A stretch of DNA of 64,000 nt from Heptranchias perlo (Eukaryota): contig NC_090363.1 of assembly GCF_035084215.1 (NCBI RefSeq), positions 5,766,001-5,830,000 of the forward strand, read 5' to 3'. The notes under the pieces were generated by a model that saw only the letters and a program-made list of their open reading frames with translations, was not told where the DNA came from and ran no database searches. The position numbers and the translations under genes were made by a program. Positions 7,986 to 51,487 of the stretch are shown piece by piece (position 1 is the stretch's first letter; each line of letters begins with the position of its first letter).

Positions 7986-8696
7986 GTATCTGGTCTCCCT
8001 GGTAAACCGCTGGCCTGGATTGGCACAGGGTTAGCTCGGGCTTTATGCTTTAAATCTCTGCATTGCTGTTTGTTTTTTTGTGAAAGCCTTTACCCCGGTG
8101 CAGGACCTGTGCTTGAAGCTTGGGAGCTGGGGAGGCGGAGATGATGTGCAGCCTCTCCACTGTTGATTTGACCTAAGGTTTCATAATGTGACTGAGCAAA
8201 ACAAAAATTTTTTTAACTAAATTTGGATGATATATTTTTCCTCCCCTCTCCTGGAGGTGCTGGAGTTGGTTGTCCAGGCAGATGATGTCCTCAGCCATGT
8301 TCTTCGGTGAGCCTGAACTGAGTTTATGGACGGGTTATTAGTCAGCGAGGCCTAGCCCAGTGCATGGGTCAACTTTCACTCCATGTACAAATGCATAACC
8401 CGACACAGACTGCATCCTGGCCGTTCTGGTTTTATGGATCATTCCCATTTACCCACTAGCCCATTTGGGGGAGCTGCTTAATCTTGCATTTTCAGTGTGA
8501 TTTTTTTTTTAGAAAAAAGGAGGCATTTTTTTTGTAGTCACCCTAAAATTCTGTCATTGTTTTCAGCAGAGCTGCGATGAGGTGCTCTACACATGATTGG
8601 AACAGCAGGCTGCTTGGGGGCGGAGATTGGGAGAGTTCAGGGATCGTGCGGGTGGTTTACATGCGGAGATTTGAGTGGCAGCTTTCTGTGTTGCAG

Positions 8697-8796
8697 GTGG
8701 AGACGGTGAAGTGTATTCTGGAAGAGCTGAAGCTGCGAGTGTATGAGGTGAAGGACGAGAAAGCCACACTCGACGGTAGTGATGTCTTGTTTACAG
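8697..8796 (+). CDS. DDAH2: DDAH2-type dimethylargininase, internal coding exon (VETVKCILEELKLRVYEVKDEKATLDGSDVLFTG)
   Basis: ttgcag acceptor and gtaacc donor; 100 nt, phase 0->1; DGxDVLFTG motif carrying the catalytic Asp. Confidence 0.93.
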
Positions 8797-8830
8797 GTAA
8801 CCGCTGGCTGTGTCGTCGCCGCCGCCGCTC

Positions 8831-8945
8831 GGGAATTTCCTCGCAGCCGCTCCTGCTCCGTCGCCGGAAATCCCGTTCGCTCCTAAACGGGGATGGCCGC
8901 AGCAAGCCAGGCGAAGTTACCAGGAGCGGCTCCGAGGAAAGTCCC
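8831..8945. promoter_or_regulatory. NF-kB site cluster in a CpG-rich intronic patch
   Basis: GGGAATTTCC (8831), GGAAATCCC (8866), GGAAAGTCCC (8936; reverse complement GGGACTTTCC). Confidence 0.55.
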
Positions 8946-9796
8946 GACCATTGGGGCATGGCTCCGTGGATGGCAGCAGGTCTCTGGTACCGCACGCGTG
9001 CCCGTTCTTCGTGCATGAACCCGCATCGGTGAATGTGGACAGACTATTCGACTGTGAGGGCATCACAGCCGACCTCATCCCATATCCCCACTTGTATTTT
9101 CCAGCAGTAATCACTGGAAAGTGATGAGCGATAAACCTGGCTTTGGGTTTTCTTCTTTCCTGCCCCCCCCCACTTCCAACTCAGAGACATGGATAAGCAA
9201 TAAACCTCCCCCACCCCCACAACTTGACCTGGTTCAGCTAACTTGACACAGGCTGGGGATCAGACTGCTGATCTCCTTAATTCAGACCTGCTCTAGCAGT
9301 GCAGTTATCCAGAAAGCCAATGGGCTAAGTCATCATTGTCTCCTTTTCAATTTAAAAATACGCCCAGAGCTATTTGTTCAATTTTTTTTAAAACCAGGGT
9401 TGCCTATGTTGGACTCAGTAATTCGTTCCAGCTAGCAGCCTATTGCAGGCTACGTCACCACAGAAGAGTAGCCCAGCTGCCTTCCACCATCTTGCTCAGT
9501 AACTCCACTCACCCAGCACCCTGACTCTATCTGCCGATATTAACCCAGCTCCCTCTTGCCATCTGGTTCTAGACACGAAAGGCATCAGGGGGTGTGGGGA
9601 GCGAGCGGGAATATGGTATTGAGATAGAGGATCAGCCATGATCATATTGAATGGTGGAGCAGGCTCGAATGGCCTACTCCTCCTATTTTCTATGTTTCTA
9701 TGGTTCAGTAACTCCTCTGAACACTTAAGGTGAAGGATGCATGTTCTGGGCAATCGAACACTTTCCCATTCTGACAAACTTGGATATTCACCAATG

Positions 9797-10062
9797 CTCC
9801 CAGGGCAAGTACAGCACAGGTTAGATACAGAGTAAAGCTCCCTCTACACTGTTCCCATCAAACACTCCCAGGGCAAGTACAGCACGGGTTAGATACAGAG
9901 TAAAGCTCCCTCTACACTGTCCCATCAAACACTCCCAGGGCAAGTACAGCACGGGTTAGATACAGAGTAAAGCTCCCTCTACACTGTCCCATCAAACACT
10001 CCCGGGGCAGGTACAGCACGGATTAGATACAGAGTAAAGCTCCCTCTACACTGTCCCATCAA
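9797..10062 (+). repeat. Minisatellite, ~4 x 67 bp
   Basis: Unit CTCCCAGGGCAAGTACAGCACGGGTTAGATACAGAGTAAAGCTCCCTCTACACTGTCCCATCAAACA; partial inverted copy at ~12353-12408. Confidence 0.95.
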
Positions 10063-11041
10063 TATGCTTTGGCCCCAATCTCATGCTTCCAAGTGACTCC
10101 TTGCAACATTTCTCCATCTTCCACACCAGCTGTCCAGTGTCCTGTCTGAAAGAAATTGTCAAACTGGGGACAGTTTCTGCTGTTGGTCCATGACCAGCAG
10201 GATTGAGACTGTCCGAATTTGTGTCTCACTGGGACCCTTTCAGTCAACAGGTAAGACGACTTATCCCATGCGAGACTTGTCGAAACTCTTTTATATTGGA
10301 TCGTGCGTCACATTGGTGTCCTCCTGCTCAGACCGTGCCCCCCCCCCCTGCTGGGACTGCGTACTCCACCCCAGCCCCAACACCACCATCTCTGCACAGC
10401 TCCTCCTGTTAGTCACTCAGGGAGTTGCACATTCTGATGGGGCTACTTTTTAATGGTTCTATTCTGGACTCCAAGAGGAAGTGGTTTTGTGAAACGCTGA
10501 CTCTGTGACTGAACGATTGAAGCCCCTTATTTTTTTTGGGGGGGGAACGGGTGGTTAAATTTCAGATCTTCAGGACTGGTTTGTAACCAGCTGGATTAAC
10601 CTTTCCATTGACATCTAATGCCCTGGGGGGTGGGGTTTAGATTTTGTCTTCCTCTCTCCTCGGGGTTGTAATCATGCAGCACAGAAAGAGGCCGTTCAGC
10701 CCATCGTGCCTGCGCTGGCTCTTTTTGAAAGAGCTATCCAATTAGCCCCACTCCCGCTGCTCTCTCCCCATAATCCTGCAAATTTTTCCCCTTCAAATAT
10801 TTATCCAATTCCCTTTTGAAAGTTACTATTGAATCTGCTTCCACCGCCCTTTCAGGCAGCGCATTCTAGATCAGAACAATTTGTTGCATTTATATATTCA
10901 ACTGCCCCAACTCCCGCATTCTTCTGCCATTTGATGCCTCTCCTTGCCATGTGAAGTCTCGTTTTAATTCCAATTCCTCTTCTCTCCACCCGCCCACCCT
11001 CCGCAAAAAACCTCTGACCAATCCCCCCTTTTCTGTTCCAG

Positions 11042-11115
11042 GGCGTGAGTTCTTTGTCGGCATCTCGAAATGGACCAACCTCAAAGGAGCGGAATTCGTG
11101 GCGGCCGCGTTCAAG
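11042..11115 (+). CDS. DDAH2: DDAH2 exon (REFFVGISKWTNLKGAEFVAAAFK)
   Basis: ttccag/gtgagt; 74 nt, phase 1->0; SKWTN matches DDAH2 (DDAH1 has SKRTN). Confidence 0.93.
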
Positions 11116-11363
11116 GTGAGTGGCAGGGGAACGCCCGTCGTGGGGGGTGGAGGTACCTGCTGGGGTGGGGGGAGGTGGAGGGAAAGGGAAATTGGGACTC
11201 TATTTGCTGATGATCCCTATGTGTTTGGGGAGAAGTTTATTCAGCAATTTGATGTACTTCAGTAATTGGGCTGTTGAGAGCTGATTGTAACGCATGGATC
11301 TCTCGTTTGATGACTAGGAAGGTTTGTGTTAATGGATCATTATCTCTTTTTGTGTTTCTGCAG

Positions 11364-11483
11364 GATTTTACTGTCTCCGTAGTGCAAGTCCCTGAACCCC
11401 ATCATTTGAAGAGTTTCTGCAGCATGGGAGGCCCCAACACCATTGTCGTCGGGAGTAGTGAGGCTGCTCGAAAGGCAATCAAG
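11364..11483 (+). CDS. DDAH2: DDAH2 exon (DFTVSVVQVPEPHHLKSFCSMGGPNTIVVGSSEAARKAIK)
   Basis: ctgcag/gtcagg; 120 nt; HLKSFCSM catalytic-His motif. Confidence 0.93.
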
Positions 11484-11625
11484 GTCAGGCGGGACCCTTA
11501 CTGTCAGCCCAACCCCGACCTCCCCTCCCAGTCCAGAGCCTGCTGATCCAGCTCCAGCATTAACCATCTATTTTCCCTCCTCTCAGTAGCCCTGGCTCCC
11601 CAGTGTCTTTGTGCCTCTTAATGGA

Positions 11626-12286
11626 TCACTGGATAGTGTGTGGGGATACTGACAGGGGGGTCACTGGGTAGTGTGTGGGGATACTGACAGGGGGGTCACT
11701 GGATAGTGTGTGGGGATACTGACAGGGGGTCACTGGGTAGTGTGTGGGGATACTGACAGGGGGTCACTGGGTAGTGTGTGGGGATACTGACAGGGGGGTC
11801 ACTGGGTAGTGTGTGGGGATACTGACAGGGGGGTCACTGGATAGTGTGTGGGGATACTGACAGGGGGGTCACTGGATAGTGTGTGGGGATACTGACAGGG
11901 GGGTCACTGGGTAGTGTGTGGGGATACTGACGGGGGTCACTGGGTAGTGTGTGGGGATACTGACAGGGGGGTCACTGGGTAGTGTGTGGGGATACTGACA
12001 GGGGGTCACTGGGTAGTGTGTGGGGATACTGACAGGGGGGTCACTGGGTAGTGTGTGGGGATACTGACAGGGGGGTCACTGGGTAGTGTGTGGGGATACT
12101 GACAGGGGGGTCACTGGGTAGTGTGTGGGGATACTGACAGGGGGTCACTGGGTAGTGTTTGGGGATACTGACAGGGGGTCACTGGGTAGTGTGTGGGGAT
12201 ACTGACAGGGGGGTCACTGGGTAGTGTTTGGGGATACTGACAGGGGGTCACTGGGTAGTGTGTGGGGATACTGACAGGGGGGTCAC
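11626..12286 (+). repeat. G-rich minisatellite, ~19 x 34-35 bp
   Basis: Unit TCACTGGGTAGTGTGTGGGGATACTGACAGGGGG(G). Confidence 0.97.
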
Positions 12287-12514
12287 CCTAACCTGAGGTG
12301 TAGTAGTCAATATGCCCCTTGTAGCCACATTGGCTGGGGGTTTTGTGACTTGTGTAGAGGGAGCTTTACTCTGATGTACCTGCCCTGGGGTGGACGATGA
12401 TGGGACAGGGTGTTTTTCCATTAGGCTGTGGACGAGCGATTACAGAATCAGGCCCGTTGTTTCCCGAATAGTTTCCTTGCTCACTTTTCTTCCCCCTTAT
12501 CCCTTTCTGGACAG

Positions 12515-12658
12515 GCAATGGAGCAGCTGACAGACTATCAGTACGACAAGCTGAGTGTGCCGGATGACTCCGCAGCCAATTGCATCTATGCACGAGTTGG
12601 TAATAAGAGCAACTTTCTGGTCCATCGGACGGCAGAGGAGTTTCCGGAAAGTTCAACG
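12515..12658 (+). CDS. DDAH2: DDAH2 exon (AMEQLTDYQYDKLSVPDDSAANCIYARVGNKSNFLVHRTAEEFPESST)
   Basis: ggacag/gtagat; 144 nt; PDDxAANCIY and LVHR motifs. Confidence 0.92.
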
Positions 12659-12920: not shown

Positions 12921-13325
12921 TAAGGTGAGTGGTGATGTACATTCCCCTTTAAGGCAGGGAAGGTGAGTGGTGATGTACATTCCCCTTTAAGGCAGGGAAG
13001 GTGAGTGGTGATGTACATTCCCCTTTAAGGCAGGGAAGGTGAGTGGTGATGTACATTCCCCTTTAAGGCAGGGAAGGTGAGTGGTGATGTACATTCCCCT
13101 TTAAGGCAGGGAAGGTGAGTGGTGATGCACATTCCCCTTTAAGGCAGGGAAGGTGAGTGGTGATGCACATTCCCCTTTAAGACAGGGAAGGTGAGTGGTG
13201 ATATGGATGCACAGTTCCCCTTTAAGCCAGGGAGGGTGAGTGGTGATATGGATGCACAGTTCCCCTTTAAGCCAGGGAGGGTGAGTGGTGATATGGATGC
13301 ACAGTTCCCCTTTAAGCCAGGGAGT
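12921..13325 (+). repeat. Minisatellite, 7 x 38 bp followed by 3 x 45 bp
   Basis: Unit AGGTGAGTGGTGATGTACATTCCCCTTTAAGGCAGGGA and a longer variant. Confidence 0.95.
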
Positions 13326-21729: not shown

Positions 21730-22135
21730 AATGCTTGCATTTATACAGTGCCTGTCATGACTTCAGGACATCCGAAAGTGCTTTACAACCGATGAAGTAC
21801 TTTTGAAGTATAGTCACTGTTGTAATGTAGGGAAACGTGGCAGCTAATTTTGCACACAGCAAGATTCCCCAAACAGCAATGTTTTAGGTGTAGTTTGAGG
21901 GATAAATATTGGCCAGGACACTGGGGAGAACACCCCTACTCTTCGAAATAGTGACGTGAGAGGGCAGACGGGGCCTCAGTTTAACGTCTCATCCGAAGGA
22001 CAGCATCTCCCACAGTGCAGCATTCCCTCAGGACTGCACTGAAGTCTCAGCCTGGAGTTTGTGCTCACATCTCTGGAGTAAGACTTGAACCCACTACCGT
22101 TTGACTCAGAGGCAACAGTGCTGCCAACTGAAACA
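21730..22135 (-). mobile_element. SINE (same family)
   Basis: Reverse complement of 4148-4590. Confidence 0.8.
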
Positions 22136-22926
22136 TGACTTTGCACAACCAGGGTGGTGTGAAGACAGGTTAAAAAAAGTTCTCAGGTTATCACTTGAAC
22201 CTTCTAGATGCTTTATAAACTTATTGGGAAATCATTTTAATATTAGGAAAAAGCATTCTTACAGTAGTAAGATACCAGCAGGAGAACTCTGGTAAGCAGG
22301 AATGAGCAGAGCCCCTTGCTAGGGATAACTGGCAGTATAACTTTGCCAGTTGTGATTTGCATTTTACAGCTACCAATCTCAAACATGTAATATGGTATAA
22401 TTGCAGCCTCAAATATTTCTGACAGCACACTTTGCTTCTCGGCATGTGAATAAGTAAAGATCTTCCAGCCATTGCATTTCCATGTTCTTTGACTGTTTCA
22501 AAATTAATGAACATTGACAAGCTATGGGTTAATGAGCATGTAAACCATTCATGCATAAACATAACCAGATATATGTATAACCATAAACCACTTCCAGCAG
22601 TTTCCCTGCCAATCAAACCCATTCCTTATCATTATGTGAATAATGGGGCAGAAAATTGGGCACTTGAGGGTAATCACAAGACAGCAGAGGGGAAGATGAT
22701 TTAACCTGGTCTAGAGAAATGGGAAACTTGAACTTTTAGAACACTTATGTTATGGGGACGCAGAAATTCTACATCTTAGGTTGATGATATCATTAACATA
22801 CGACACCTGAGGAAGTCTCTTTGGGAAAGTACCAGCATTCCATTCTACCAAAGGCCCTGCTGTACTATGAAACAGGGAATAACTACACACATTTTTAAAG
22901 CAGCTGAACAGTTAAGAAAAGAGAGA

Positions 22927-23346
22927 CTTGCATTTAAATAGCGCCTTTCACAACCCCAGGACGTCCTTCGGTGCTTTATAGCCAATTAAGTACTTTTTTT
23001 TGAAGTGTAGTCACTATTATAATGTAGGAAACGCAGCAGCCAATTTCTGCACTGCAAGGTCCCACAAACAGCAATGCAATGATGACCAGATAATCTGTTT
23101 CCGTGGTGTTGGTTGAGGGATAAATGTTGGCCAGGACACCGGGGAGAACTCCCTTGTTCTTCTTCGAATAGTGCCGTGAGATTCAGCTTAGCGCCTCATC
23201 CAAAAGATGGCACCTCCGACAGTGCAGCACTCCCTCAGTACTGGAGAGTCAGCCTAGATTATGTGCTCAAATCTCTGGAGTGGGACTTGAACGCATGACC
23301 TTCTCGGCTCAGGGGTGAAAGTGCTGCCAACTGAGTCACAGCTGAC
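22927..23346 (-). mobile_element. SINE (same family)
   Basis: Reverse complement of 4148-4590. Confidence 0.85.
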
Positions 23347-23570: not shown

Positions 23571-23720
23571 TTATTGGAATGTGGAAAGGACCTCGCAGAG
23601 AGGCTGGTTTGAAGGGATTGACTGTCTGCTGAACCTCGATGCGTTGACTGTGCTGTAGTCAGGAAAGGAGACATCACTGTTGAGTGGCAGAGTGCTATAT
23701 CTGGGATCAGAAGGTGTTGC
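23571..23720 (-). CDS. NCR3: Gene A last exon (ATPSDPRYSTLPLNSDVSFPDYSTVNASRFSRQSIPSNQPLCEVLSTFQ*)
   Basis: tcttag acceptor, phase 0, TAA; two YxxL/V motifs; summed CDS 780 nt stays in frame. Confidence 0.68.
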   Translation of the reverse strand, partial: ATPSDPRYSTLPLNSDVSFPDYSTVNASRFSRQSIPSNQPLCEVLSTFQ

Positions 23721-23934
23721 CTAAGAGTTACAATTAAAAATAAAATCACATTCTTTTTCACCGATTCTATTTGCATTTGTTCAGACTATAATTTTCTTTT
23801 ACTGTTTAGAGTGAGAAATATCAATCAGAGAGAATGAATTTGTTGAGGTGAAAAATCAAAAACGTTTCATTTTTTAAAAAAAATCAGCCCCGTGGTCCAA
23901 AAGATTTAAAAATGACATTGAGGACTTTAAATTA

Positions 23935-24220
23935 AGACTTGCATTTATATAGCGCCTTTCACGACCTCAGGAAGTCCCAAAGCGCTTTGCAGCCAATTAA
24001 GTACTTTCGAATTGTAGCCACTGTTGTCGTGTGTGAAATGCGGCAGCCAATTTGTGCGCAGCAAGCTCCCACAAACAGCAATGAGATAATGACCAGATAA
24101 TAGGGGTGAAATTGGGCAGGGATGCAGAACAGGCGGAATCGCATTTGCTCACTGCTACACGACACGCACTGCAGTGTAAGCTTAGATTATGTGCTCGACT
24201 CCAGAGTGGGCCTTGAACTC
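23935..24220 (-). mobile_element. SINE (same family, partial)
   Basis: Tail and core present. Confidence 0.75.
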
Positions 24221-24378
24221 AAAGGCGGCATTTTTAAGCTAAGGCGCCTGCCGGGATGCTGACGGGATCGGGTGCAAGAGTCTTATGACAGAGAGGCAAC
24301 AGTTTTACCAGATCTAATCTGCAAGACGATAGTAATTTTTTTAACTAACAATAAAACTAACAATAAAAATGATCTTAC

Positions 24379-24419
24379 TGACTCCTGATTCGGTAGTGAC
24401 ACCTGAAGTTCAATTATTT
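24379..24419 (-). CDS. NCR3: Gene A cytoplasmic exon (EIIELQVSLPNQES)
   Basis: ttccag/gtaaga; 41 nt, phase 1->0. Confidence 0.62.
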
Positions 24420-26626
24420 CTGGAATATGAACAGAAAGTGTTATATAGATATATGATGCAGACAATGTATCATCATTCTCAATCAGCAGTGGTTAGTTTT
24501 TTACTTTCTCCCCTCAAACCCCATTCCTTCCGGTTGCCAACTTTGGCTGGGCACAGCACCAGGGCTGCCAATCTCCAATAAGTTATCTAAATGGCCAATC
24601 TTCATACAGGAAGGTTAGAATTCTCCCGTCAGCATTCCCATCCTATTGTTCTTATTGGGAAATTCGAATCGCAAACCCAGCATTTTTCCAAATCAAGGAT
24701 GACACCTAGCATAGGAACGGAGGAACAGGAGTAGGCCGTTCAGCCTGTTCCACCATTCAGTGAGATTATGGCTGATCTGTATCTTAACTCCATCTGCCTG
24801 CCTTGGTTCAATATCCCTTAATACCCTTGTCTGACACAAATCTATCAATCTCAGTATTGAAAATTTCTTTTGACCCCCCCATCCTCAACAGCTTTTTGGG
24901 GGAAGAGTTCCAGATTCCCACTACCCTATGTGTGAAGAAATGCTTCCTGACATCACCCCTGTACGACCTAGCTCTAATTTTAAGGTTATGCCCCCTTGTT
25001 CTAGACGCATCCCTCCCTTACCACAGGATCAATGGAAGGCGGAGAATCAACAACACAACTGAGGGGATTGTTTTTCTCAGAGCAGTAAAAGAGAGAGGTC
25101 ACTGGATGAATTTATTTTGAACTGAGGACTAAGTGATGGAGTGACCAGCTGGAGTGAAGTGAGTGGGAGTGACCAGCAGTCCTGAGTTCCATGAAAGATG
25201 TAGATGGATATATGGTTGGAGGAGATTCATCACATGGGGCTGTCCAGGGGATTGAAAGCAAGGGTGGGACTCTTGAGGTCCACATTCTGTGGCAGGGAAG
25301 ACAATGGAATTCGTCAATGATAGTAACGATAAATGCAAAGAAAGCCTTGGATTCCTACAGAGCCCTTCACAATCTCAGGACATCCCAAAGAACTTTACAG
25401 CCAATGAAGTACTTCTGAAGTGTAGTCGGTGTTTCACTCTCGGGAAGTTTTGTTAGGCAAGGGTATGAGGGGACATGGAACCAAGGGGGGTAAATGGAGT
25501 TGAGATACAGATAAGCTATGATGTAATTGAATGACGGAACAGGCTCCAAGGGCTAAATGGCCTACGCCTTTTCCTATGTTCCTATGTAATGTATGGAACT
25601 ATGGTGTGACAGTGGATTCACAGTGTAGTTATATCAATGAATTGGAGTTTGTGAAGGGTCGCAGAAGCTAGCCAAGAGATGATTAGAGAAGTCTGTTCTG
25701 GAGGCAATGGAGGTCTAGATTAAGGGTTCAGTGCCAAAGAGAGAGAGATTGGGCGGGGAGGTGATAGGGATGCAAGCGGGCGATTGTCTGGAGGGGGTAA
25801 TATCGTCTTTGTGACTGACTGGATGGGGGCAAGTAGATCAACTCAGGATCGAACAGAACACTGAGTTTGTACACAATCTCGGCTGCTGGGAGGATTGTTG
25901 GGACTGAAACCAAAGTTATAGAGCTGTTAGAAATAGAAAGGGATGGTTTCAGTTTTGGCGGAATTTCGGCGTATCCATAATTTGATGTTGGTTGGATGGC
26001 CAACGGGCAGAGTGGAATCATAGGTGGAGGAGAGATACTGTTAAGCATCACCAACATACACTGTCGACTCAAGTATATCCTGCATTTCCTTAGGTTTCTC
26101 CATATGGGCTCTTTCAAAAAATAAGCAGCTAAAAAGGGTTAGGGTCAAACTTAAATCTGCTATGCACTTGTTTTAAACTGCCCGGTATGTTCTTTAATCA
26201 GTCAGACCTGGTGACCTGGGTGGTCAGTGGCTTAGACTCGTTGAGCTGATCTATCAGTGAAGCCACTGCACATTTTGACACCACGGAAATAAAAACAGAA
26301 CATGCTGAAAACGCTCAGCAGGTCAGGTCGCTCCACAGTGTTTGTTAAAGGCCACACCGCCATATTAGTGTTCTGTTGCCATAGTTTGGAAGGATGGAAG
26401 CTCCTCTCTAACGTTAGGTGATCACTACCTGTGCTGTGCTGATTATTCACTATTAATTGCACTTCGAGTTTCCCTCAATCACAGACAATTATTTATAGTG
26501 ATAGACACTTGAAAAGTTCACATGAAGTCCATCGTAGCACAAAGGGAAAAATTGTCAGAAAAACCACCGCGTTCGACTTTCAATAATGTGATTGTCAAAA
26601 TCTAAGAAATGCGCATAAATACTAAC

Positions 26627-26667
26627 CGTATAATTCACCTCTTCCCGATTGTGTAACCGTATGTGGC
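26627..26667 (-). CDS. NCR3: Gene A cytoplasmic exon (GPHTVTQSGRGELY)
   Basis: ttgtag acceptor, gttagt donor (alternative in-frame gtgaat donor would end the exon at 26639); phase 2->1. Confidence 0.6.
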
Positions 26668-26769: not shown

Positions 26770-26788
26770 CCTTTAAGTCTTGATATCA
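26770..26788 (-). CDS. NCR3: Gene A 19-nt cytoplasmic microexon (VISRLK)
   Basis: Strong polypyrimidine acceptor ttttcttttatttag and gtatgt donor; needed to keep the downstream frame open. Confidence 0.65.
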
Positions 26789-27125: not shown

Positions 27126-27201
27126 CTGGGATAAGACGACAAAGAATGCTCATTTCACAACTCAGTGTTTGGTCATTAAGCTTACAATCTGAATCACAAG
27201 A

Positions 27202-28976
27202 GAGAGAGTAGGGCCTCTTAAGGATCAACAAGGTCATCTATGTGCGGAACCACAAGAGATGGGTGAGATCCTAAATGAATATTTCACATCGGTATTTACG
27301 GTTGAGATAGGCATGGATGTTAGGGAACTTGGGGAAATAAATAGTGATGTCTTGAGGAGTGTACATATTACAGAGAGGGAGGTGCTGGAAGTCTTAACGC
27401 GCATCAAGGTAGATAAATCTCCGGGACCTGATGAAATGTATCCCAGGACGTTATGGGAGGTTAGGGAGGAAATTGTGGGTCCCCTAGCAGAGATATTTGA
27501 ATCATCGACAGCTACAGGTGAGGTGCCTGAAGATTGGAGGGTAGCAAATGTTGTGCCTTTGTTTAAGAAGGACGGCAGGGAAAAGCCTGGGAACTACAGA
27601 CCGGTGAGCCTGACATCTGTAGTGGGTAAGTTGTTAGAGGGTATTCTGAGAGACAGGATCTACGGGCATTTGGAGAGGCAGTGACTGATTAGGAACAGTC
27701 AGCATGGTTTTGTGAGAGCAAAATCATGTCTCACAAATTTGATTGAGTTTTTTGAAGGGGTAACCAAGAAGATAGATGAGGGCTGTGCAGTAGACGTGGT
27801 CTACATGGACTTCAGCAAAGCCTTTGACAAGGTACCGCATGGTAGGTTGTTACATGAGGTTAGATCTCATGGGATCCAAGGTGAGGTAGCCAATTGGATA
27901 CAAAATTGGATTGACGACAGAAGACAGAGGGTGGTTGTGGAGGGTTGTTTTTCAAATTGGAGGCCTGTGACCAGCGGTGTGCCTCAGGGATCGGTGCTGG
28001 GTCCGCTGTTATTTGTTATTTATATTAATGATTTGGATGAGAATTTAGGAGGCATGGTTAGTAAGTTTGCAGATGACACCAAGATTGGTGGCATTGTGGA
28101 CAGTGAAGAAGGTTATCTAGGATTGCAACGGGATCTTGATAAATTTGACCAGTGGGCCGATGAATGGCAAATGGAGTTTAATTTAGATAAATGTGAGGTG
28201 ATGCATTTTGGTAGATCGAATCGGGCCAGGACCTACTCCGTTAATGGTAGGGCGTTGGGGAGAGTTATAGAACAAAGGGATCTAGGAGTACAGGTTCATA
28301 GTTCCTTGAAAGTGGAATCACAGGTGGATAGGATGGTGAAGAAGGCATTCAGCATGCTTGGTTTCATTGGTCAGAATATTGAATACAGGAGTTGGGATGT
28401 CTTGTTGAAGTTGTACAAGACATTAGTTAGGCCACACTTGGAATACCGTGTACAGTTCTGGTCACCCTATTATAGAAAGGATATTATTAAACTGGAAAGA
28501 GTGCAGAAAAGATTGACTAGAATGCTACCGGGACTTGATGGTTTGACTTATAGGGAGAGGTTGGATAGACTGAGACTTTTTTCCCTGGAGAGTAGGAGTG
28601 ATCTTATAGAAGTCTATAAAATAATGAGGGGCATAGATAAGGTCGATAGTCAAAATCTTTTCCCAAAGGTAGGGGAGTCTATAACGAGGGGGCATAGATT
28701 TAAGGTGAGAGGGGAGAGATACAAAAGGGTCCAGAGGGGCAATTTTTTCACTCAAAGGGCGGTGAGTGTCTGGAACGAGCTGCCAGAGGCAGTAGTAGAG
28801 GCGGGTACAATTTTGTCTTTTAAAAAGCATTTGGACAGATACATGGGTAAGATGGGTATAGAGGGATATGGGCCAAGTGCAGGCAACTGGGACTAGCTTA
28901 GTGGTATAAACTGGGCGACATGGACATGTTGGGCCAAAGGGCCTGTTTCCATGTTGTAAACTTCTATGATTCTATG
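27202..28976 (+). mobile_element. CR1 LINE, 5'-truncated, RT nearly intact
   Basis: ORFs 27259-27684 and 27712-28896 (YMDFSKAFDKVPH, GVPQGSVLGP, KFADD); (TTCTATGA)n tail. Confidence 0.95.
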
Positions 28977-32960: not shown

Positions 32961-33162
32961 CCACAGTCTGATCAAACTTTTCTGGTGAGCTGATGAATAG
33001 GAACTGTTTGCTAACGGAACAATTTGTGTCTAACTCAAAGGCATTGAATTGTCCAGTAGAAGGTATAACATGTAAGACAATTTCATGTATAACACAATCG
33101 TACACGTTCAAACCTGAATAAAGATAAAACTAAAATGAGAAAATATGAAGACAGTGACTCAC

Positions 33163-33220
33163 CAATATGTAAAAACATTGTCACTAAATTCAGGATCGTC
33201 CATATGTGAATAGTTTGCAT
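33163..33220 (-). CDS. NCR3: NKp30/NCR3-like gene A, leader exon (MQTIHIWTILNLVTMFLHI)
   Basis: ATG, hydrophobic peptide, phase-1 gtgagt donor; identical copy upstream of gene B. Confidence 0.8.
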
Positions 33221-33300
33221 TTTTACACGTTCTCTACAGGACAATACCAGCTCACGTTTGGCTTGCAGCGACCCAAAGTGCTGCTAAACACAGCAAACAT

Positions 33301-33365
33301 TCCACCGCAGGCACTGACGTGTGTGGAAAAAAAACCTGCGGTGGTTTAATTACCACAGACCACGA
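33301..33365. promoter_or_regulatory. RUNX-core cluster (ACCGCA, TGCGGT, ACCACA) plus TGACGT upstream of the gene A leader
   Basis: Three RUNX cores within 55 bp, ~85-140 bp upstream of the ATG. Confidence 0.45.
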
Positions 33366-33845
33366 ACTATGTTTATTATTTTTCCAATTGTGCTGGGAAA
33401 CAATATTTTAACAATAATTAGGAAAGAACACTACGTCAATGTTGCATAAGCGTCACCGAGTATATTGAGACAAAAATGGATTAGAGTTCAGTTTAATCCT
33501 CCATAAACTACAATGGTTTGCACCGGAGATAGAAACTCATCTTAAGTTTCCTCAAAAAGCAGAATGTATGGAAACAGTGCGCAGTGTAAAGCCAGATTGA
33601 AATGTGGAATTCCATGGATGAAACTATGCAGCGATAGACTCCATGGCGGGATTACCCAAATGGACACTTCGGATAGATACCCGGAGTCTCTGATATGCCT
33701 TTGGCACCAGATTCCGGGATGACCCATTTGCTTCAGAAGAAGAATGCGCGCGGAGAAAATCAGAAGGGAAACTTTATTGAAAAAACTTAGACAGAATTAT
33801 AAAAGCAGATTCTGTTAGCAGAGGGTGTTACATTCAAAAGGCCTG

Positions 33846-34682: not shown

Positions 34683-36019
34683 TATATAAATGTACACAAA
34701 ATTTGCAACTTTTTTCAACACAGATATTCAGCAATCTATGCAATGGACCTAGGTCCACAGTGGAGGGCAGCAACAAGATTTAAAATAATAGCAGAGAAAA
34801 TAAATTGATGACACCAAGCACAGGCACGATGGGCCGAATGGCCTCTTTCTGTGCTGGACCATTCTACGAAGCTGTAGATTGCAAAATGAAGAGAAGGTGG
34901 AGGAAGGTAATGATTTCCATAACTTTCAGCTCCTGGGTCATAGTAAGTTACAACAGGAGAGGAACTTGATTTCAACACCATAATAATGCAGGGAGGTGTA
35001 AGAGGGCAAATTTGGAGCTTAGAATACCCGGGAAATCAGAGGAGCGCTGGTCATAGTACAGCAATATCAATAAACCAGCATGAAAACAGAACTGTCACGT
35101 CTTCACAAAGATTATTGATAAAAGTGCATTTAGTTAAACGTTTAAGTGGCTAAACTTTGAGAGTGTGCTTTGCCTTAAGACGTGGTGATCTCTGTCTGGG
35201 TCAGGTTCAAATGAAACAACCTCAGTTCCTTCTCTATTAGTTTTTAATAAAATCTTATTTATTCATTTTGAAAGAGTTTTTTGACCAGTTTTTGATGTTA
35301 AATAGAGTAATACGTGTCGTAGAAGACAAATTGAACTTTAATTTCTGAAGCCAACAAATGGTAATGGAATGATTGTACAGCACAAAGAAACGATCACAAT
35401 GTAGCAAATGTGTTTAACGATGGATTAATCTAATAAATTTAAAAAATAAAACCAGTTCTTCTTTTGTGTCTATTCTGACAGAGAATGAAAGCAACCACCA
35501 TTGTGCAATGCTTAATTCAGCTGTAGAGGGATATGAAGCCTTTTTAGTGTTTCAGTATGAGTTGTCCAAATAGGGAACCGATTTCTGTACAGCGATCAAA
35601 CCCACGAACTAACTTATAGTGTTTCGTAGCTGCATTTGCAAATCACAATTCTGGTATTGCATTACCTCTTTCACCCATCGATACCTGGCTACACGTTTCA
35701 AGATCTTACTGACAGATCAATGTCACTTTATTGGAAATTAGTTTTGCAGAAATATAATATCAGTGAATCATAACGTCTAGTGTAATGTACATTTTGGTTT
35801 CCTGCATAAATTACAAAACCACTTCGCTCTACCGCTGGTGCAAATTCAAAGTGCTAAGCCATCAATGGGAAGACACTACAAATCATTTGGGTCATAAACT
35901 GACCTGCTGGAAAAGCTCAGCAGGTCAAGTAGAATCTATGGGAAAAGGAAAAAAAGTTAACGTTTCAGGTATATAATCTGAAGATGCATTTAAGGGGGAG
36001 CTAGATAAGAACATGAGGG

Positions 36020-36870
36020 GAAAGGGATAGAAGGATATGTTGATGGGGTTAGATGAAGTAAGGTGGGCGGAGACTGGTGTGGAGCATAAACACCAGTATA
36101 GATCTGTTGGGCCGAACGGCCTGTTTCTGTGCTGTAAATTCGATGTAATTCTATGTAACAATCCTTCGTCAGGACGGGAAGGGATTAAAAATGGACAGTT
36201 TATACGAAGGAGCAGAGCAAGAGAGTGGAGGGGTAATTTCATACAAAAGAAAATAAAATAAGAGGGCAGACGGGGCCTCGGTGTAACGTCTCATCCGAAA
36301 GACGCCACTCCCTCTGTACTGTCACTGGGAGTGTCAGCCTAGATTTTCTGCTCAATACTTTGCAGCTGGACTTGAATCAACAGCCTTCTGACTCAGAGGC
36401 GAGAGCGCGATCCACCACTGAACAACAACATTTAGAACTGCACTAATATGGAAACTTGTGAATAATTTTATTCCAGTAATCTTCTTGGAGGTTAATAAAG
36501 ATGTGCTACTTTTGTCACTTCATGAAAGCAGAAAGGGTCACTTTCGTGTGAAGAATTCCATGCAGTTTAGCACAGAGAACTGATACCTTCCTGATCACGT
36601 TCAAAAAGGGAAACGGTATATAAAGAAAACCAAAGATTAAACTGTGTACTATCACAATGAGACCAAAGTTCTTATTCTTTAACAAAGTGTTCAAAATCAT
36701 GTAGGGCTTAGATAAAGTAAATAAAGAGAAACTTTTCCCATTGGCGGAAGGGTCGAGAACCAGAGGACACAGAGTTAAGGTGATTGGCAAAAGAACCAAA
36801 GGCGACGCGAGGGGGAACTTTTTTTGTGCAGCGAGTAGTTATGATCTGGAATGCACTGTCTGAAAGGGTG
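36020..36870. repeat. Segmental duplicate of ~57760-58630
   Basis: Near-identical sequence; ORF-track translations 36037/57776 and 36515/58274 match. Confidence 0.92.
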
Positions 36871-38681
36871 GCGGAACTGATTGAAAAGGATGCAACTCTT
36901 ATTCTCAAGAGACACAACACAAATATCGGAAGTGATGACCAGAAATGGCGTGAAACTCGCAGCAAACTGTCAGTAGCAGTATACCAGGGATCAAATATTT
37001 GTAAACAGACTGACATTGAACGGTCTGAAAGTCACATGCGGTTTATCCATCGGTATATAATTTACAGGCACAAATCACACAAATGCTTGAGAGTGGCATA
37101 AACTATTACGGGTGTTTGTGGGAATTGATATGGCAGAAAAAAGAAAAAAAGTGTAAGTTTTAGGGAAATCTATGAATGAATAGATAGTCAGGCAGACCGA
37201 CTTTAACTCGGATTCTCTACAGTTTTTCCATTGCCTTTTCGTGTCTTCAGTAGTGCAACATGGCACAGATCGAAATCCCCTTTTCGGCTTCACATTTTCT
37301 GGTTTCCCTGGATGTCAATCCTTGCAGGAACGCGCTAATGGCAGCAGCGTTGACGTGCTGTACATTCTAATATAACCCTGAACTCCTTCATCACTGGTAA
37401 TTCTGTATCTGTTGGACTATAGTCTAAAAGTGCTCTTGCTGATCGTAAAAGATGCTCCTGAGGATTGGAGAACAGCAGATGTTACTCCCATTTCTTTTAA
37501 AGGTACCAAAAGTGACCCAGGAAACTGCAAACCAGTGATTTTGACGGCCATTGTGGGTAAAGTTATGGAAACCCATATTAAACATAACATCATGGAGCAG
37601 CTGGATAGAAATAAAATCATAAAAGATAACCAATATGGGATCATGAAGGTCTTGATCATAACAAGCGGCGTCACCTTGTCCAGAACAGTGGGACCAGAGG
37701 ACACGGCCTGTAGGTGAAGGAGGATGAATTCAAACCGAATCTGCAGAAGCTGAGCGAGTGGCAACTCGTGACTTCGATGGAAAGGGAAATCGGGAGAGGT
37801 GTTTAACGGACAGCCGATCCAATATCGTTTTACACTATCGACACAAGTTAAAATTACTCCCTCTTCTAGATTGTCATATAGTTGAACTGCCGTGCAAGTT
37901 ATAATAAAAGAAAATTTGATGTTTATAGATGTGAATGGCAGAATCAGCTGTGCAAATATTTCATCAGCTTGCTTCTTTGACCTATAACTTTTGATATGAT
38001 GCCTGGTTGTATAAAGCACCATACGATCTATCTCTTCCATTTAAAGCGCCTTAAATAGTTTTGTACTATAACTGAAATCACACTATGACTGAAACATTAC
38101 TTACTAATCGAAGAATCAAATAATATCACTTTAATTAACACTTATATTTTAATATCCTGTCTCATTTTCTGTCACTTGCACACGGCAGCATCGCTGACTC
38201 TGGGCTGGTGAGGGCGCTGCAAACCAGAACAGCCTACGTATTGCAGGTGTGACCTATTCTCACTCGGTAGACTTTGTTCATCTTAATCAGTTATACCGTA
38301 TAAAACTCATGCCTAAACAATAAACAATTATTGGCAAAATGCACAAATAGCACAGCAGCCCAAGGTGCTGGGACATTTTACAATGTTTTATAGGATTGTT
38401 ACTGAGAGTCAGCACGCCGGTGGAAAACAGATCTTAATAAATCTACTGATATTTCCGCTGGTTGCTTCATATATGTTCTTGCTTTAAAGCTTTAAATCTC
38501 TCATGTGAAAGATTTTAGAATGATGTATTCCCGTTGGTGTTACTATTTTAGATCATCCAACTGCAGCGACCTGCAGATATAAGAGTGGTTTAAACTTTAA
38601 GCTTTAACTTCGGGCATTAGTGCAAAATGGGCTCTATCGAATCGACCGCCTATTATTCGCCCACCAGATTTTCCCGTCCAT

Positions 38682-44643: not shown

Positions 44644-44730
44644 CTACTGCATGTTCTTTCTTGTCTGTGGTCCACGTTTTTGCTTTGTCTTAACTTCATT
44701 ACCGTGACAATGAAGATAATTCTCTTCATG
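44644..44730 (-). CDS. NCR3: Gene B putative last exon (HEENYLHCHGNEVKTKQKRGPQTRKNMQ*)
   Basis: ttctttctccaaag acceptor; open in phase 0 to TAG; reading frame depends on the preceding exon. Confidence 0.5.
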   Translation of the reverse strand, partial: HEENYLHCHGNEVKTKQKRGPQTRKNMQ

Positions 44731-44831
44731 CTTTGGAGAAAGAACATGAACATTATGTTGATTTGTATCAAGATAAAAAGAAGGCATTCTTTCACCACTA
44801 AATTTTATAAAGCACGCATTTTTTTCATAAC

Positions 44832-44854
44832 CGCTGCGTTATTCCCTTCAGAAC
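44832..44854 (-). CDS. NCR3: Gene B putative small exon (GSEGNNAA)
   Basis: aaacag/gttatg (weak sites); phase 1->0 parallels gene A exon 6. Confidence 0.4.
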
Positions 44855-45494
44855 CTGTTTAAACTTGTAACGGTCTACAAATTACACCGTGCCAAATTAG
44901 GCTTTTCTAAGGCATGTGTGGAATTCAACAGTTTTATCTTGGACAAATTGAGTTGTGCTGGGAAACAATGCCACGGGTCTTTGATTTTTACACAGAGGGT
45001 GCAGAGAGCAGGCGTACGGAGCTAAGGAGGAATACGACATAGGCGACTATCGGAACAGTGTCAGTATGAATAAAATGGGGGAAAACAGATTTAAAAGGAT
45101 GCCACAGTGAAAGAGAGAGAGGCAGAAAGAGATTCCTATCACCATAATTGATTACATTGTAGAACTATAATAACTCTGCATTTACAGGTCTCAGTTACAT
45201 GCATGCACGAAGGATATCTATGTGGAAAGCCCCCAGAGGAGAATGTTTGTTTTGTAAACATTTTATGTAAAGTCTTTGTTAGCTTTAAAAGAAAGAGTCA
45301 AAGTGATCCATCTAACTTCCTGGGGACTTTGCAAAATCATTCCACAGAGATTTAAACTCTCTACAGTCAAACAAAAAGCTCCCTCTTCCAGGCGAAGCCC
45401 TCACTCTGGGTATAGGTAAAAGGGTAAAAGATATACCCTTTGCAATGTTTGTATCATTCCCCCTCTTAGGTAAAAAGTGCAGAATTCTTAAAAT

Positions 45495-47860
45495 GCATTC
45501 AGGAGAACTTTTTTTAGCTAGTACGTAGCAAGCCCAACAAGAGAGTGTGCAGTTCTGGACATAGTTTTAGGGAATAAAGGGGCAGGTGGAAGGAGTATCA
45601 GTGGGAGAGCATTTTGGTGATAGTAATCATAATTCAGTTAGATTTAGCGTAGTTATGGAAAAGGACAAATGTAGAACAGGGGTAAAAGTTCTCAATTGGG
45701 GAAAAGCCACATTTACTAACCTGAGATGTGATTTGGCAAAAGTGGACTGGAAACAGCTACTTGAAGGTAAATCAGTGTCAGACCAGAGGGAGGCGTTTAA
45801 GGAGGAAATAGAGTGGGCTCAGAGCAAGCATGTTCCCACAAAGAAAAGGTGTGGGACTCCCAAATCTAGAGTCCCCTGGATGTCAAGGAGCATACAGGGT
45901 ATGATAAGACAAAAAAGGGAAGCTTATGTCGGATACCGAGAGCTCAACACTGCAGAAAGCCTAGAGGAGTATAGAAAGTGCAGGGGTAAAATTAAATAGG
46001 AATTTAGGAAAACAAATAGAGGACATGAAAAAAACATTGACAAGTAAAATCAAGGAAAACCCAAAGATGTTTTATAAATACATAAAGAACATGAGGATAA
46101 ATAAGGAAAGAGTAGGGCCTATTAGAGACCAAAAAGGAAACCTATGTTGGGAGGTGGAAGACCCGGGTATGGTTTTCAATGACTATTTTGCGTCTGTCAT
46201 CAAAAAAGAGGGGGACGATGCAAGCATTGTAGTTAAGGAGGAGGAGTGTGAAATATTGGATGGGATAAACATAATGGGAGAGGAAATATTAAGGGGATTA
46301 GCATCTTTGAAAATAGATAAATCACCAGACCCGGATTAAACGTATCCCAAGCTGTTAAGGGAAGCAAATGGGAGGAAATAGCAGAGGTTATGACCATCAT
46401 TTTCCAATCCTCTCTGGCTATAGGCGTGGTGTCTGAGGACTGGGGGACTGCTAACATTGTACCATTGTTTAGAAAGGGAGAAAGGTTTAGACCGAGTAAT
46501 TACAAGCCAGTCAGCCTAACCTCGGTGGTGTGCAAATTATTGGAAACAATTCTGAGGGACAGTATTGATCGTCATTTAGAAAGGCACGGATTTGTTAAGG
46601 GAAGGTCACGTCTGACTAACTTGATTGAATTTTTTGAGGAGGTAACAAGGAGGTTCGATGAGGGTAGCATGTTTGATGTAGTCTACATGGATTATAGCAA
46701 GACATTTGACAAGGTCCCACGTGGCAGACTGCTCAGGAAAGTAAAAGCCCATGAGATCCAAGAGAAAGTGGTAAATTGGATTCAAAATTAGCTCAGTAGC
46801 AAGAAGCAAGAGGTAATGGTTGACAGGTGTTTTTGCGACTGGAAGGCTGTTTCCAGTAGGGTTCCACAGGGCTCAGTATTAGTTCCCTTGCTTTTTGTGG
46901 TATACATGAATGATTTAGACCTAAATGTAGGGGGCATGATTAAGAAGTTTGCAGATGATACAAAAATTGGCCCGTTGATAGTGAGGAGGAAAGCTGTAGA
47001 CTGCAGGAAGATATCAATGGACTGGTCAGGTGGGCAGAAAAGTGGCAAATGGAATTTAATCTGGAGAAGTGTGAGGTAATGCATTTGGGGAGGGCAAACA
47101 AGGCAAGGGCGTACACAATAAATGGGAGGATACTGAGAGATGTAGAGGAACAGAAGGACTCTAGAGTGCATGTCCACAGATCCCTAAAGGTAGCAGGATG
47201 GTTAGATAAGCCGATTAAGAAGGCATACAGGATACTTCCCTTTATTAGCCGAGGCATAGAATATAAGAGCAGGGAGGTTATGCTCAAACTGTATAAAACA
47301 CTAGTTATGCCACAGCTAGATTATGTGTAGTGTTCTGGTCACCACATTACAGGAAAGTTGTGATTGCACTAGAGAGGGTACAGAGGAGATTTACGAGGAT
47401 GCTGCCAAGTCTGGAGAATTTTAGCTATGAGGAAAGATTGGATAGCCTGGGGTTGTTTTCTTTAGAACAGAGGAGAGATTTAATTGAGTTGAACAAAATT
47501 ATGAGGGGCGTAGATAGAGTGAATAGGAAGGACCTATTTCCCTTAGCAGAGAGGTCAATAAACAGGGGGCGTATATTTAAAGCAATTGGTAGAAGGATTA
47601 GAGGGGAGTGGATGAGAATTTTTTTTCACCCAGAGGGTGGTGGGGGTCTGGATCTCACTGCGTGAAAGGGTGGTAGAGGCAGAAACCCTCATCACATTTA
47701 AAAAGTACTTGAATATGCACGTGAAGTGCTGTAACCTACAAGGATACGGACCAAGAGCTGGAAAGTGGAGTTAGGCTGGATAGCTCATTTTCAGCCGGCT
47801 TAGACACGATGGGCGAATGGTCTCTTTCTGTGCTGTAAATTTCTATGATTCTATGGTTCT
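45495..47860 (+). mobile_element. CR1 LINE, degenerate
   Basis: Frameshifted EN-end/RT ORFs 45586-47665; TTCTATGA tail. Confidence 0.93.
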
Positions 47861-48799
47861 AGATTGACACCACGGGTATAATGTCCTACCGAACAGAAAC
47901 CACTGCCCAGCGTACTAATACCAGTATCATGAATGCTCGCTAAATGAAATCCACATGATTAATCGGTCAGATTAAGGAGCACAAAGCAGTCACTGGATTC
48001 ATTAATCTGTATTTTGGCGGCAGGAATCAGTGCCCAATTCGCGAGATGGGGGCCACACAATAGGCGGGAAGTCCTCCAGTGGAATCCGTGCAGTGCTCAA
48101 TCTTCCTGCTAACCTTTTAGGTCAACTTCAAATGTTGTCATAGTGGAACTTTGGAGAACTGCACCAGAAAAATTATATTAATTTAAAGAAGGCTTCTGCA
48201 CCACTTTCTGTTTTGCATTGGTCTTGTACACGTGGAATGACCGCAAAGGGAGCGCCATGTGCAATGGAAGTCTTAAAAGAATAGTTTCTTATACTTTTTT
48301 TCGTTTTCACCTTTTCAGTAACGATCGTGTTGTTTCTTTTAAAAAAACACGTGTCCATTCCTTGCCTTTCTATATTTTGTACATTTCATTTTAGTTTTTT
48401 TTTAATATCAGAGTACATGAGGAATGTTAATGTTAAAATAACAGTAACAATGCATCTGTAAATTCACTCGAAAGCCGAGTGCAATTGAAACATTTAAAAT
48501 ATTTCAGCAGAACTGCGAGAGCTTTGAGAAGGACGGTCACCATAAAGAGACTCTTACAATACACATTTTCAGGGGAGTTCTGAAAGCTACAAGGTATCTA
48601 AGTACAATCTGTGGATTCCCGTGGAGGTTAACAAGTTATAGCAAAATTAATGATGGGCGTTGGTTTTAAAGCGCCCAAATACAGTGTATTGTCATTGAAA
48701 TGGTGCAAGATGAACAGACGTGTGCGATAGGGACCAGCAGACACCCAGAGCTGGATTAGCTGCACTTGTCATTATGCCATTGCCATATCTGTAGGTCTT

Positions 48800-49180
48800 G
48801 GCATACCGACCTGGCAATGACCAAGGACAACTGCCTTCGCAGCTTATGGGACAGCAGAGAACCAGATGTGGAACTATAACATATACTACCAGGAAACATG
48901 TGGCAACCCCACGCCACAAAGCGGCAAGGCAGCCGCAAGTCAAGTTTACCACTGCAATCATACTTTTACAATCTAGAGGAGTAGGTATAGAATGCCAATG
49001 GTAATACCCACGGATGTATCACACTGGTGGCTGATGCATCAGCCAGCATCGCCAACACTTACATTTCGTCTCGCCGAGAATAACAATGACAGCATGATGT
49101 GACTCAGCAATGCCACTGCATTATTGCATCTTCCACTGTGCAGGGATCATTGACAGCAGCCATGTAACTATTTGGACATT
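48800..49180 (+). mobile_element. PIF/Harbinger transposase relic
   Basis: VKFTTAI and GIIDSSHVTI resemble HARBI1-type GAIDCTHVAI. Confidence 0.5.
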
Positions 49181-49754
49181 AGGCTTCAACTCTTCCTCAT
49201 GCTGCCCACCACTTGCTGTACCCTGTGACTCAGCTTCTGTAACCTCCTCAGCTTCTGGCAGGATGCGTGTTGCTGTGCTGGTGCTTGCAAATGTTGGTGA
49301 GAAAGATGGAGACGGTGTGTGGTGTTGTCTTGTTCTGACCTACATGCTTCTCTCCAGGTTTACAATGACAAAAACATGTTAGAATGCTGATCCTAAGATA
49401 TATCTTCAAGGAAAGCATTCGTTACAAGATGGGAGGAGGGGGGGGGGGGCGGAGGTAATTATATCCTAACCCGCCCGTCGGAAAACTGACGCGATCGGAT
49501 GCAACGCTCATTTTACGCCATTATTTCTCGTATTTTCCTCCTTTTATTTCAATTAAAAACATGTATCATCGTATTTTGCTTTGATCACATATTGTTCAGA
49601 TATTTCTGCAGGTCATTCCAATGGTTTTATCATGCACTTTTGATAATTATTTGATGTAATCAATAATTTTGCACAAAAATGTGGAAGTGGAATTGTATAA
49701 TCTTTTATACATGACACACAACACATGCAACTAGACAGACAAACAAGCATTTAC

Positions 49755-51368: not shown

Positions 51369-51487
51369 CTGTAAATTGAAAAGAATGCAGAAATATAATT
51401 CGTGTTAATACAATTATTGATAATGCTATTGGCGATTATTGTAACAATACAATGATATCAACTCTCAAAAATATGAAATCCTCCAAA

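What the first reader, a model, noticed from the sequence alone, without database searches (positions are those of the whole stretch)
23571..26667. Gene A tail carries an ITAM-like DPRYSTL-x10-YSTV plus an exon-junction YEII
Seen: the last exon reads DPRYSTLPLNSDVSFPDYSTV in a frame the ORF track does not show. Spacing fits an ITAM, but the second motif ends in Val. Both Y-2 positions are Pro, so neither is a canonical ITIM. YEII forms only if the gttagt donor (exon end 26627) is used; the in-frame gtgaat donor (26639) removes that Tyr. Inference: intrinsic signalling whose sign is unknown, possibly tuned by alternative splicing.
Basis: partly seen in the sequence, partly recalled or inferred. 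Interest (0 to 1): 0.75.

Follow-up and report, generated by a model that had tools for sequence, protein, structure and literature searches.

The report
Shark NKp30-family receptor, reshuffled tail tyrosines
This is a spliced shark immune-receptor gene of the known NKp30 family whose apparent "on-switch" tyrosine pair is seen in only one of six shark species compared, while the single tyrosine kept by all six likely belongs to a braking-type tail, so it looks mostly ordinary.

Summary
Gene A is a seven-exon, minus-strand V-TM-tail receptor identical to RefSeq XP_067829800.1 (Heptranchias perlo) and orthologous to a nurse-shark NCR3. One spliced contig uses the 26627 donor and the proposed last-exon frame, so YEII is made. 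No contig with the 26639 donor was seen, and none of five orthologues can hold that donor in register (inferred). YSTL-x10-YSTV fails both published ITAM patterns and fits only a loosened one. Across six species: Tyr196 3/6, Tyr218 (YSTL) 1/6, Tyr232 (YS[T/N][V/I]) 6/6; a C-terminal Tyr, an ITIM in two species, is in 4/6 and absent here. The TM has no basic residue. Most likely: an adaptor-independent, ITIM-derived, weakly inhibitory tail with Tyr232 as its core. Caveat: all five comparators are galeomorphs, so gain versus loss of Tyr218 is unresolved, and a lineage-specific switch to an ITAM-like activating tail (about 15%) is not excluded. No signalling was tested.

The parts
33163..33220 (-). 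Gene A leader exon, coding part (19 codons + 1 base)
   Evidence: Matches P0001 residues 1-19; this junction was not shown in the contig tables
29832..30170 (-). Single VJ-type Ig V exon with J-like G-x-G-T strand
   Evidence: Pfam V-set 3e-8; profile's best PDB match human NKp30, 50 bits vs 37 for SIRPa; contig piece
26994..27125 (-). Stalk and transmembrane exon; no Arg/Lys within the hydrophobic stretch 150-168
26770..26788 (-). 19-nt cytoplasmic micro-exon that sets the tail frame
   Evidence: Joints 26666>26769 and 26788>26994 in contig of X1; skipping it gives a 171-aa product in the model
26627..26667 (-). 41-nt cytoplasmic exon; Tyr196 codon at 26630-26628; used donor after 26627; in-frame donor-like site after 26639, use not seen
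24379..24419 (-). 41-nt cytoplasmic exon (EIIELQ + VSLPNQES, the last 8 residues absent from 5 of 5 orthologues); internal donor-like site after 24403 is read through in the contig
23571..23720 (-). Last exon, coding part and stop; 3' UTR continues to at least 23266
23688..23708 (-). D215-P-R-Y218-S-T-L221: Tyr present in 1 of 6 orthologues
23646..23657 (-). Y232-S-T-V235: Tyr and Ser invariant in 6 of 6 orthologues, +3 always V or I
23592..23594 (-). Glu253, aligned to a C-terminal Tyr in 4 of 5 other sharks (ITIM LTYAQV in two)

Best explanation
Gene A is a spliced shark NCR3/NKp30-family receptor with no basic residue in its membrane helix, and it likely signals through its own tail as a weak, ITIM-derived brake centred on the invariant Tyr232 motif, the ITAM-like pairing likely being an incidental product of tyrosine turnover. 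Shown: gene structure, splice form, orthology, motif content and conservation. Inferred: the V domain binds a B7-family ligand such as B7-H6; clustering lets a Src-family kinase phosphorylate Tyr232 (helped by Tyr196 or Tyr218 as a second site); an SH2 phosphatase or adaptor is recruited and dampens activation by adaptor-coupled NCR3 paralogues. Because H. perlo has Pro at Y-2 and lacks the C-terminal ITIM Tyr, the brake is predicted to be weaker than in nurse or zebra shark.
For: Tyr232 6/6, Tyr218 1/6, Tyr196 3/6. A canonical ITIM pattern is in 3 of 5 comparators: LEYSTI at the Tyr232 position in horn shark, LTYAQV in nurse and zebra shark. No ITAM pattern of any stringency in the 5 comparators. 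Human NKp30 activates through a TM arginine and CD3zeta/FcRgamma (PMC6514059, passages); gene A has none. Other named shark NCR3 paralogues carry ITIMs (P0018 VEYATI; P0035 VQYSAL, VQYCTL). Of 51 fetched V-domain proteins passing a TM-and-tail filter (of 162 held; isoform duplicates and unnamed non-NCR3 proteins included), 26 had an ITIM pattern, 1 a strict ITAM, 3 the loosened pattern.
Against: H. perlo itself has no canonical ITIM or ITSM, nor do catshark and bamboo shark (3 of 6 without). It lost the C-terminal Tyr and has Asp at Tyr218-3 as in the ITAM consensus (PMC7026191), which fits a switch to activation. The horn-shark orthologue has an Arg in its TM stretch, so the sign may not be uniform in this clade. 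An ITIM pattern arises in 21% of shuffles of this tail, so single pattern hits are weak. All comparators are one clade (Galeomorphii; membership of the five genera partly recalled). No phosphorylation or binding data.
Confidence: 0.5

Rival explanations
1. The conserved Tyr232 motif is a Yxx-hydrophobic sorting/endocytosis signal (or a non-phosphatase SH2 dock), and the receptor would act mainly by competing for and internalising ligand, like CTLA-4.
For: YS[T/N][V/I] is invariant at Y and +3 while Y-2 varies (P, L, R, P, P, P), which is the pattern expected if only Yxx-hydrophobic is selected (AP-2 motif definition recalled). PMC11599192 (part 2) describes such endocytic Tyr motifs in CTLA4 tails.
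Against: Canonical ITIMs in 3 of 5 comparators and in paralogues; several tyrosines per tail suggest SH2 signalling.
Confidence: 0.25
2. In H. perlo (or all squalomorph sharks) the tail has become an intrinsic ITAM-like activator: Tyr218 and Tyr232 would bind Syk/ZAP-70 tandem SH2 domains without any adaptor.
For: D-x-x-Y-x-x-L first half; 10-residue spacer within the broad 6-12 range (PMC3827506); absence of the C-terminal ITIM Tyr and Pro at both Y-2; CEACAM3 works with a non-L/I last residue (PMC7026191); loosened pattern in only 1.7% of shuffles.
Against: Fails both published patterns; Tyr218 and Asp215 are in 1 of 6 species; Thr220, Leu221 and the second half were already there (6/6), so one new Tyr is enough to mimic the pattern.
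Confidence: 0.15
3. Signal sign or strength is tuned by alternative use of the 26639 donor, which removes GELY and Tyr196.
For: The site is in frame and matches 7/9 consensus positions, the same as the used donor. Human NKp30 has tail splice isoforms of different effect (PMC6514059).
Against: The one covering contig uses 26627; the 90% cluster of P0001 has one member; the two horn-shark isoforms differ only at the N-terminus; the in-register codon is Asp or Ala in 5 of 5 comparators, which cannot contain the GT (assuming the same exon end); Tyr196 is itself absent in 3 of 6 species.
Confidence: 0.05

Closest known systems
Nurse shark NCR3, QTT61903.1 / UniRef A0A8A9WR28 (P0007); shark NCR3 family of Kinlein et al. 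2021 (PMC8273117, title only seen)
   Same: 51% identity over the full length including leader, TM and tail; same V-domain clade (SH-aLRT 98); uncharged TM; shared YSTV motif
   Different: Nurse shark lacks Tyr196 and Tyr218 and ends in a canonical ITIM (LTYAQV); H. perlo lacks that Tyr, has the other two and an 8-residue insertion
Horn shark NCR3-like XP_067865589.1, catshark XP_038673028.1, bamboo shark XP_043533739.1, zebra shark XP_048376288.1
   Same: Full-length orthologues (48-61% identity), Tyr232 motif kept
   Different: None has Tyr218; horn shark has a TM Arg and LEYSTI; catshark has YSNI and no C-terminal Tyr
Human NKp30 (NCR3)
   Same: Single V domain with J-like strand; best solved-structure match of the orthologue profile (E 2e-12)
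   Different: Human receptor uses a TM arginine and CD3zeta/FcRgamma and has no intrinsic signalling tail (PMC6514059; PMC12272517's figure legend claims ITAM/ITIM in its isoform tails, in conflict with that); gene A has no TM charge and a 90-residue tail with three Yxx-hydrophobic motifs
CEACAM3 ITAM-like motif; FcgammaRIIA intrinsic ITAM
   Same: Two Tyr motifs in the receptor's own tail; CEACAM3 has a non-L/I last residue (PMC7026191); FcgammaRIIA carries an intrinsic ITAM (PMC3827506)
   Different: Both are functionally shown; gene A deviates in spacer and last residue together and its first Tyr is not conserved

Membership tests
Shark NCR3/NKp30 family | Single non-rearranging VJ-type V domain in one exon | tested here: met
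   Exon 30170-29832 holds the whole domain with G-x-G-T strand
Shark NCR3/NKp30 family | Closer to NCR3 than to other Ig-V families; groups with a named shark NCR3 | tested here: met
   Top four PDB sequences are human NCR3; clade with QTT61903.1, SH-aLRT 98, quick tree without bootstrap
Shark NCR3/NKp30 family | MHC linkage | tested here: inconclusive
   A DDAH-family gene lies at about 8.7-12.6 kb (hits are DDAH1 structures; that human DDAH2 is in class III is recalled); no genome held
Shark NCR3/NKp30 family | Binds B7-H6 | not testable with these tools
   No binding test run
Mammalian-type activating NKp30 | TM arginine for CD3zeta/FcRgamma | tested here: not met
   No Arg/Lys in residues 150-168
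ITAM | YxxL/I-x6-8-YxxL/I | tested here: not met
   Spacer 10, last residue Val (pattern from PMC3819593, PMC7026191)
ITAM | Broad form YxxL/I-x6-12-YxxL/I | tested here: not met
   Spacer fits, last residue Val (pattern from PMC3827506)
ITAM | Acidic residue at Y-3 of the first half | tested here: met
   Asp215; Asp in 1 of 6, acidic in 2 of 6 orthologues
ITAM | Both tyrosines conserved in orthologues | tested here: not met
   Tyr218 1/6, Tyr232 6/6; comparators all from one clade
ITAM | Recruits Syk/ZAP-70 when doubly phosphorylated | not testable with these tools
   Needs experiment
ITIM / ITSM | [ILVS]xYxx[ILV] or TxYxx[VI] (full patterns recalled) | tested here: not met
   No match in P0001; ITIM match in 3 of 5 comparators
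ITIM / ITSM | Recruits SHP-1/2 and inhibits | not testable with these tools
   Needs experiment
hemITAM | DGYxxL with upstream acidic triad | tested here: not met
   Motifs read ELYEII, PRYSTL, PDYSTV (pattern from PMC3819593)
CD28H-like receptors (PMC11599192) | Conserved E-I-P in CDR3 and YxN tail motif | tested here: not met
   EIP only in H. perlo (EIQ, EVP, EFP, EFM in orthologues); YxN only in catshark

The most novel reading that the evidence does not exclude
In the sevengill-shark lineage an inhibitory NKp30-family receptor flipped sign without gaining a membrane charge: it lost its C-terminal ITIM tyrosine and gained an upstream D-x-x-Y-x-x-L ten residues before the inherited YSTV, building an intrinsic ITAM-like module. 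This would be a natural case of an ITAM arising in place from an ITIM-type tail.
Probability: 0.15. Interest if true: 0.55.

Novelty: new member of a known kind. Interest (0 to 1): 0.27.

Why it matters
As the best reading stands it adds one more shark NCR3 with an uncharged TM and a tyrosine tail, and shows that four tail tyrosine sites come and go among orthologues while one stays fixed, which names Tyr232 as the residue to mutate first. If the novel case held, it would give a testable example of an activating motif evolving inside an inhibitory receptor tail in the oldest jawed-vertebrate NK-receptor family.

Tried and rejected
No whole genome held, so synteny beyond the window and a paralogue census were not possible. 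The run search listed no holder on record as RNA; X1 is taken as RNA only because its contig skips introns at GT..AG ends. The RefSeq model may rest on the same RNA, so it is not counted as independent. No squalomorph, ray or chimaera tail was found: a tail HMM from six orthologues hit only these and the truncated basking-shark model among the 162 proteins held; the sawfish, basking shark, Mustelus and C. punctatum models lack the tail and were left out of the counts. Kinlein 2021 could not be read, so whether it already describes this tail is unknown. Paper searches for nurse shark + NKp30 + ITAM, XMIV + Xenopus and atypical ITAM terms returned 0; NKp30 + Xenopus + shark + ITIM returned 2, of which one was read and does not treat shark NCR3 tails. 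Alternative exon combinations were translated; only the seven-exon model matches the contig length and P0001. CD28H-like identity rejected (membership table). A clean paired activating partner in gene B was considered and left open because its tail donor looks damaged. No structure or complex prediction was run: phosphotyrosine binding cannot be modelled with these tools.

Full report
Observation. The finding lies on the minus strand. The last coding exon (23720-23571) reads DPRYSTLPLNSDVSFPDYSTV in a 49-codon frame that is overlapped by a longer ORF in another frame. Ten residues separate the two motifs and both Y-2 positions are Pro. A seven-exon model (33220-33163, 30170-29832, 27125-26994, 26788-26770, 26667-26627, 24419-24379, 23720-23571) translates letter for letter to P0001, which the protein collection names XP_067829800.1, uncharacterized protein of Heptranchias perlo.

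Splice form. One 1133-nt contig of run X1 (depth 20) lies on the last exon, the TM exon and the V exon, and on the 41-nt exon 26627-26666 and the 19-nt micro-exon, with CT..AC intron ends at the two joints tabulated. Its loose end before 26627 is window 24390-24419, and the 42 record positions between the last-exon piece and 26627 equal the 41-nt exon plus one base. So the gttagt donor and the proposed frame are used and YEII is made. This is 1 contig in 1 of 4 runs laid on that stretch; contigs drop rare forms, so minor use of the 26639 donor is not excluded. That donor would delete GELY and scores 7/9 against a recalled consensus, like the used one. But counted back from the junction residue, the codon that carries its GT is Gly only in H. 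perlo and Asp or Ala in 5 of 5 comparators, which cannot be an NGT codon; this assumes the same exon end. The 90% cluster of P0001 has one member and the two horn-shark isoforms differ only at the N-terminus.

Identity. The V exon scores as V-set; a profile of five orthologues finds human NKp30 first among solved structures (50 bits; SIRPa 37). Protein searches gave full-length relatives in horn shark, catshark, bamboo shark, nurse shark (QTT61903.1, named NCR3) and zebra shark, 48-61% identical. In a quick ML tree of 46 V domains (44 distinct; the top 45 of 67 passing a score filter plus named paralogues) gene A sits in a 10-row clade, SH-aLRT 98, with these and with sawfish, Mustelus and C. 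punctatum models that lack tails. A DDAH-family gene lies 11-15 kb away, compatible with MHC class III (recalled, not tested). Eight nurse-shark NCR3 genes are cited in PMC12227049 (passages); the family paper (Kinlein 2021) was seen as a title only, and it or its supplement may already describe this tail.

Motif tests. Published ITAM patterns are YxxL/I-x6-8-YxxL/I (PMC3819593, PMC7026191; passages) and x6-12 (PMC3827506; passages). P0001 fails both and matches only when Val is allowed; it has no ITIM, ITSM or YxN. In 200,000 shuffles of the tail the loosened pattern appeared in 1.7%. Column counts over six full-length orthologues: Tyr196 3/6 (His, Asp, Asp in the three carpet sharks), Tyr218 1/6 (Gln or His elsewhere), Tyr232 6/6 with Ser233 6/6 and V/I at +3, and a C-terminal Tyr in 4/6 that is Glu253 here and deleted in catshark. 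Thr220 and Leu221 are 6/6, so a single new Tyr produces YxxL. A canonical ITIM pattern is present in 3 of 5 comparators and no ITAM pattern in any. H. perlo's TM stretch has no basic residue; horn shark's has an Arg. Human NKp30 depends on a TM arginine and ITAM adaptors (PMC6514059, passages).

Mechanism. Shown: structure, splice form, orthology, conservation. Inferred: the receptor signals without adaptors through Tyr232, in a tail of ITIM ancestry, as a weak brake (0.5). Against this, H. perlo has no canonical ITIM, 3 of 6 species lack one, ITIM patterns arise in 21% of shuffles, and horn shark has a TM Arg. Rival one (0.25): Tyr232 is a sorting motif and the receptor acts as an internalising competitor; the free variation at Y-2 fits. 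Rival two (0.15): a lineage-specific switch to an ITAM-like activator; Asp215, the gained Tyr218, the missing C-terminal Tyr and the CEACAM3 precedent fit, but both published patterns fail and conservation is 1/6. Since H. perlo is a squalomorph and the comparators are galeomorphs (plus recalled placement), they count as one independent lineage, and gain versus loss of Tyr218 is not polarised. Rival three (0.05): splice tuning at 26639.

Context. The neighbouring paralogue, gene B (57309 to about 44644, minus), has an Arg in its TM stretch where its 87%-identical sister P0160 has Ala, the same 19-nt micro-exon layout, and a leader region 98% identical to gene A's over 551 nt. That suggests a paired activating neighbour, but the exon at 51235 is followed by TT rather than GT at the end that keeps the sister's frame, so gene B's tail may be frameshifted; expression was not tested. 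Earlier notes of this scan on other shark genomes describe NCR3-like genes with inhibitory tails; they are unchecked leads, not support.

Verdict. A real, expressed, correctly read gene; a new member of the known shark NCR3 family; the ITAM is not conserved among the species available and the splice switch has no support. Other papers seen: PMC11599192 (parts 1-3 of 6 and passages), PMC10751288, PMC12272517, PMC10450919 (passages). No paper describing this tail turned up in searches, but the most relevant paper is outside the library. Interest 0.27.

Noticed in passing
window 44644-57309, minus strand (gene B): NCR3-like paralogue: V exon 54460-54134, TM exon 53786-53652 with an Arg (sister P0160 has Ala), 19-nt micro-exon 51368-51350, exons 51235-51202, 49798-49755, 44730-44644. 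The donor after the 51235 exon is one base off the sister's frame, so the tail may be frameshifted.
   Followed up: partly
window 33098-33646 vs 57187-57736; 36013-36885 vs 57752-58656; about 58970-59180: Gene A's leader exon and upstream region are duplicated (98% over 551 nt; 90% over 906 nt) in front of gene B, whose sister P0160 has a different leader, so gene B looks like a chimera with gene A's leader/promoter; a third, decayed leader copy lies near 59100.
   Followed up: partly
window 24379-24403: The 8 residues VSLPNQES are absent from 5 of 5 orthologues and begin exactly at an internal CAG|GTGTCA donor-like site, suggesting a donor shift by 24 nt; the contig reads through it.
   Followed up: partly
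window about 8690-12600, plus strand: Exons of a DDAH-family gene (one exon hits DDAH1 structures, E 4e-7); DDAH1 vs DDAH2 not resolved.
   Followed up: partly
window 27193-28893, plus strand: Long, nearly intact LINE-type reverse-transcriptase frames begin about 70 nt upstream of gene A's TM exon, in the V-TM intron, on the opposite strand (identity read from the translation, not searched).
   Followed up: no
window 11623-12286 and 12922-13323: Tandem repeat arrays of about 69 nt and 38-76 nt period inside the DDAH-gene region (self-BLAST).
   Followed up: no
window 22015-23015: A 1003-nt contig of run X1 (depth 35, 3 differences) lies just downstream of gene A's last exon and may be an extended 3' UTR.
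   Followed up: no
P0002 (Mustelus asterias XP_078075208.1): Annotation fuses an upstream V-TM NCR3-like gene to the leader and V exon of the gene A orthologue, with no tail; probably a model artefact of two adjacent genes.
   Followed up: no
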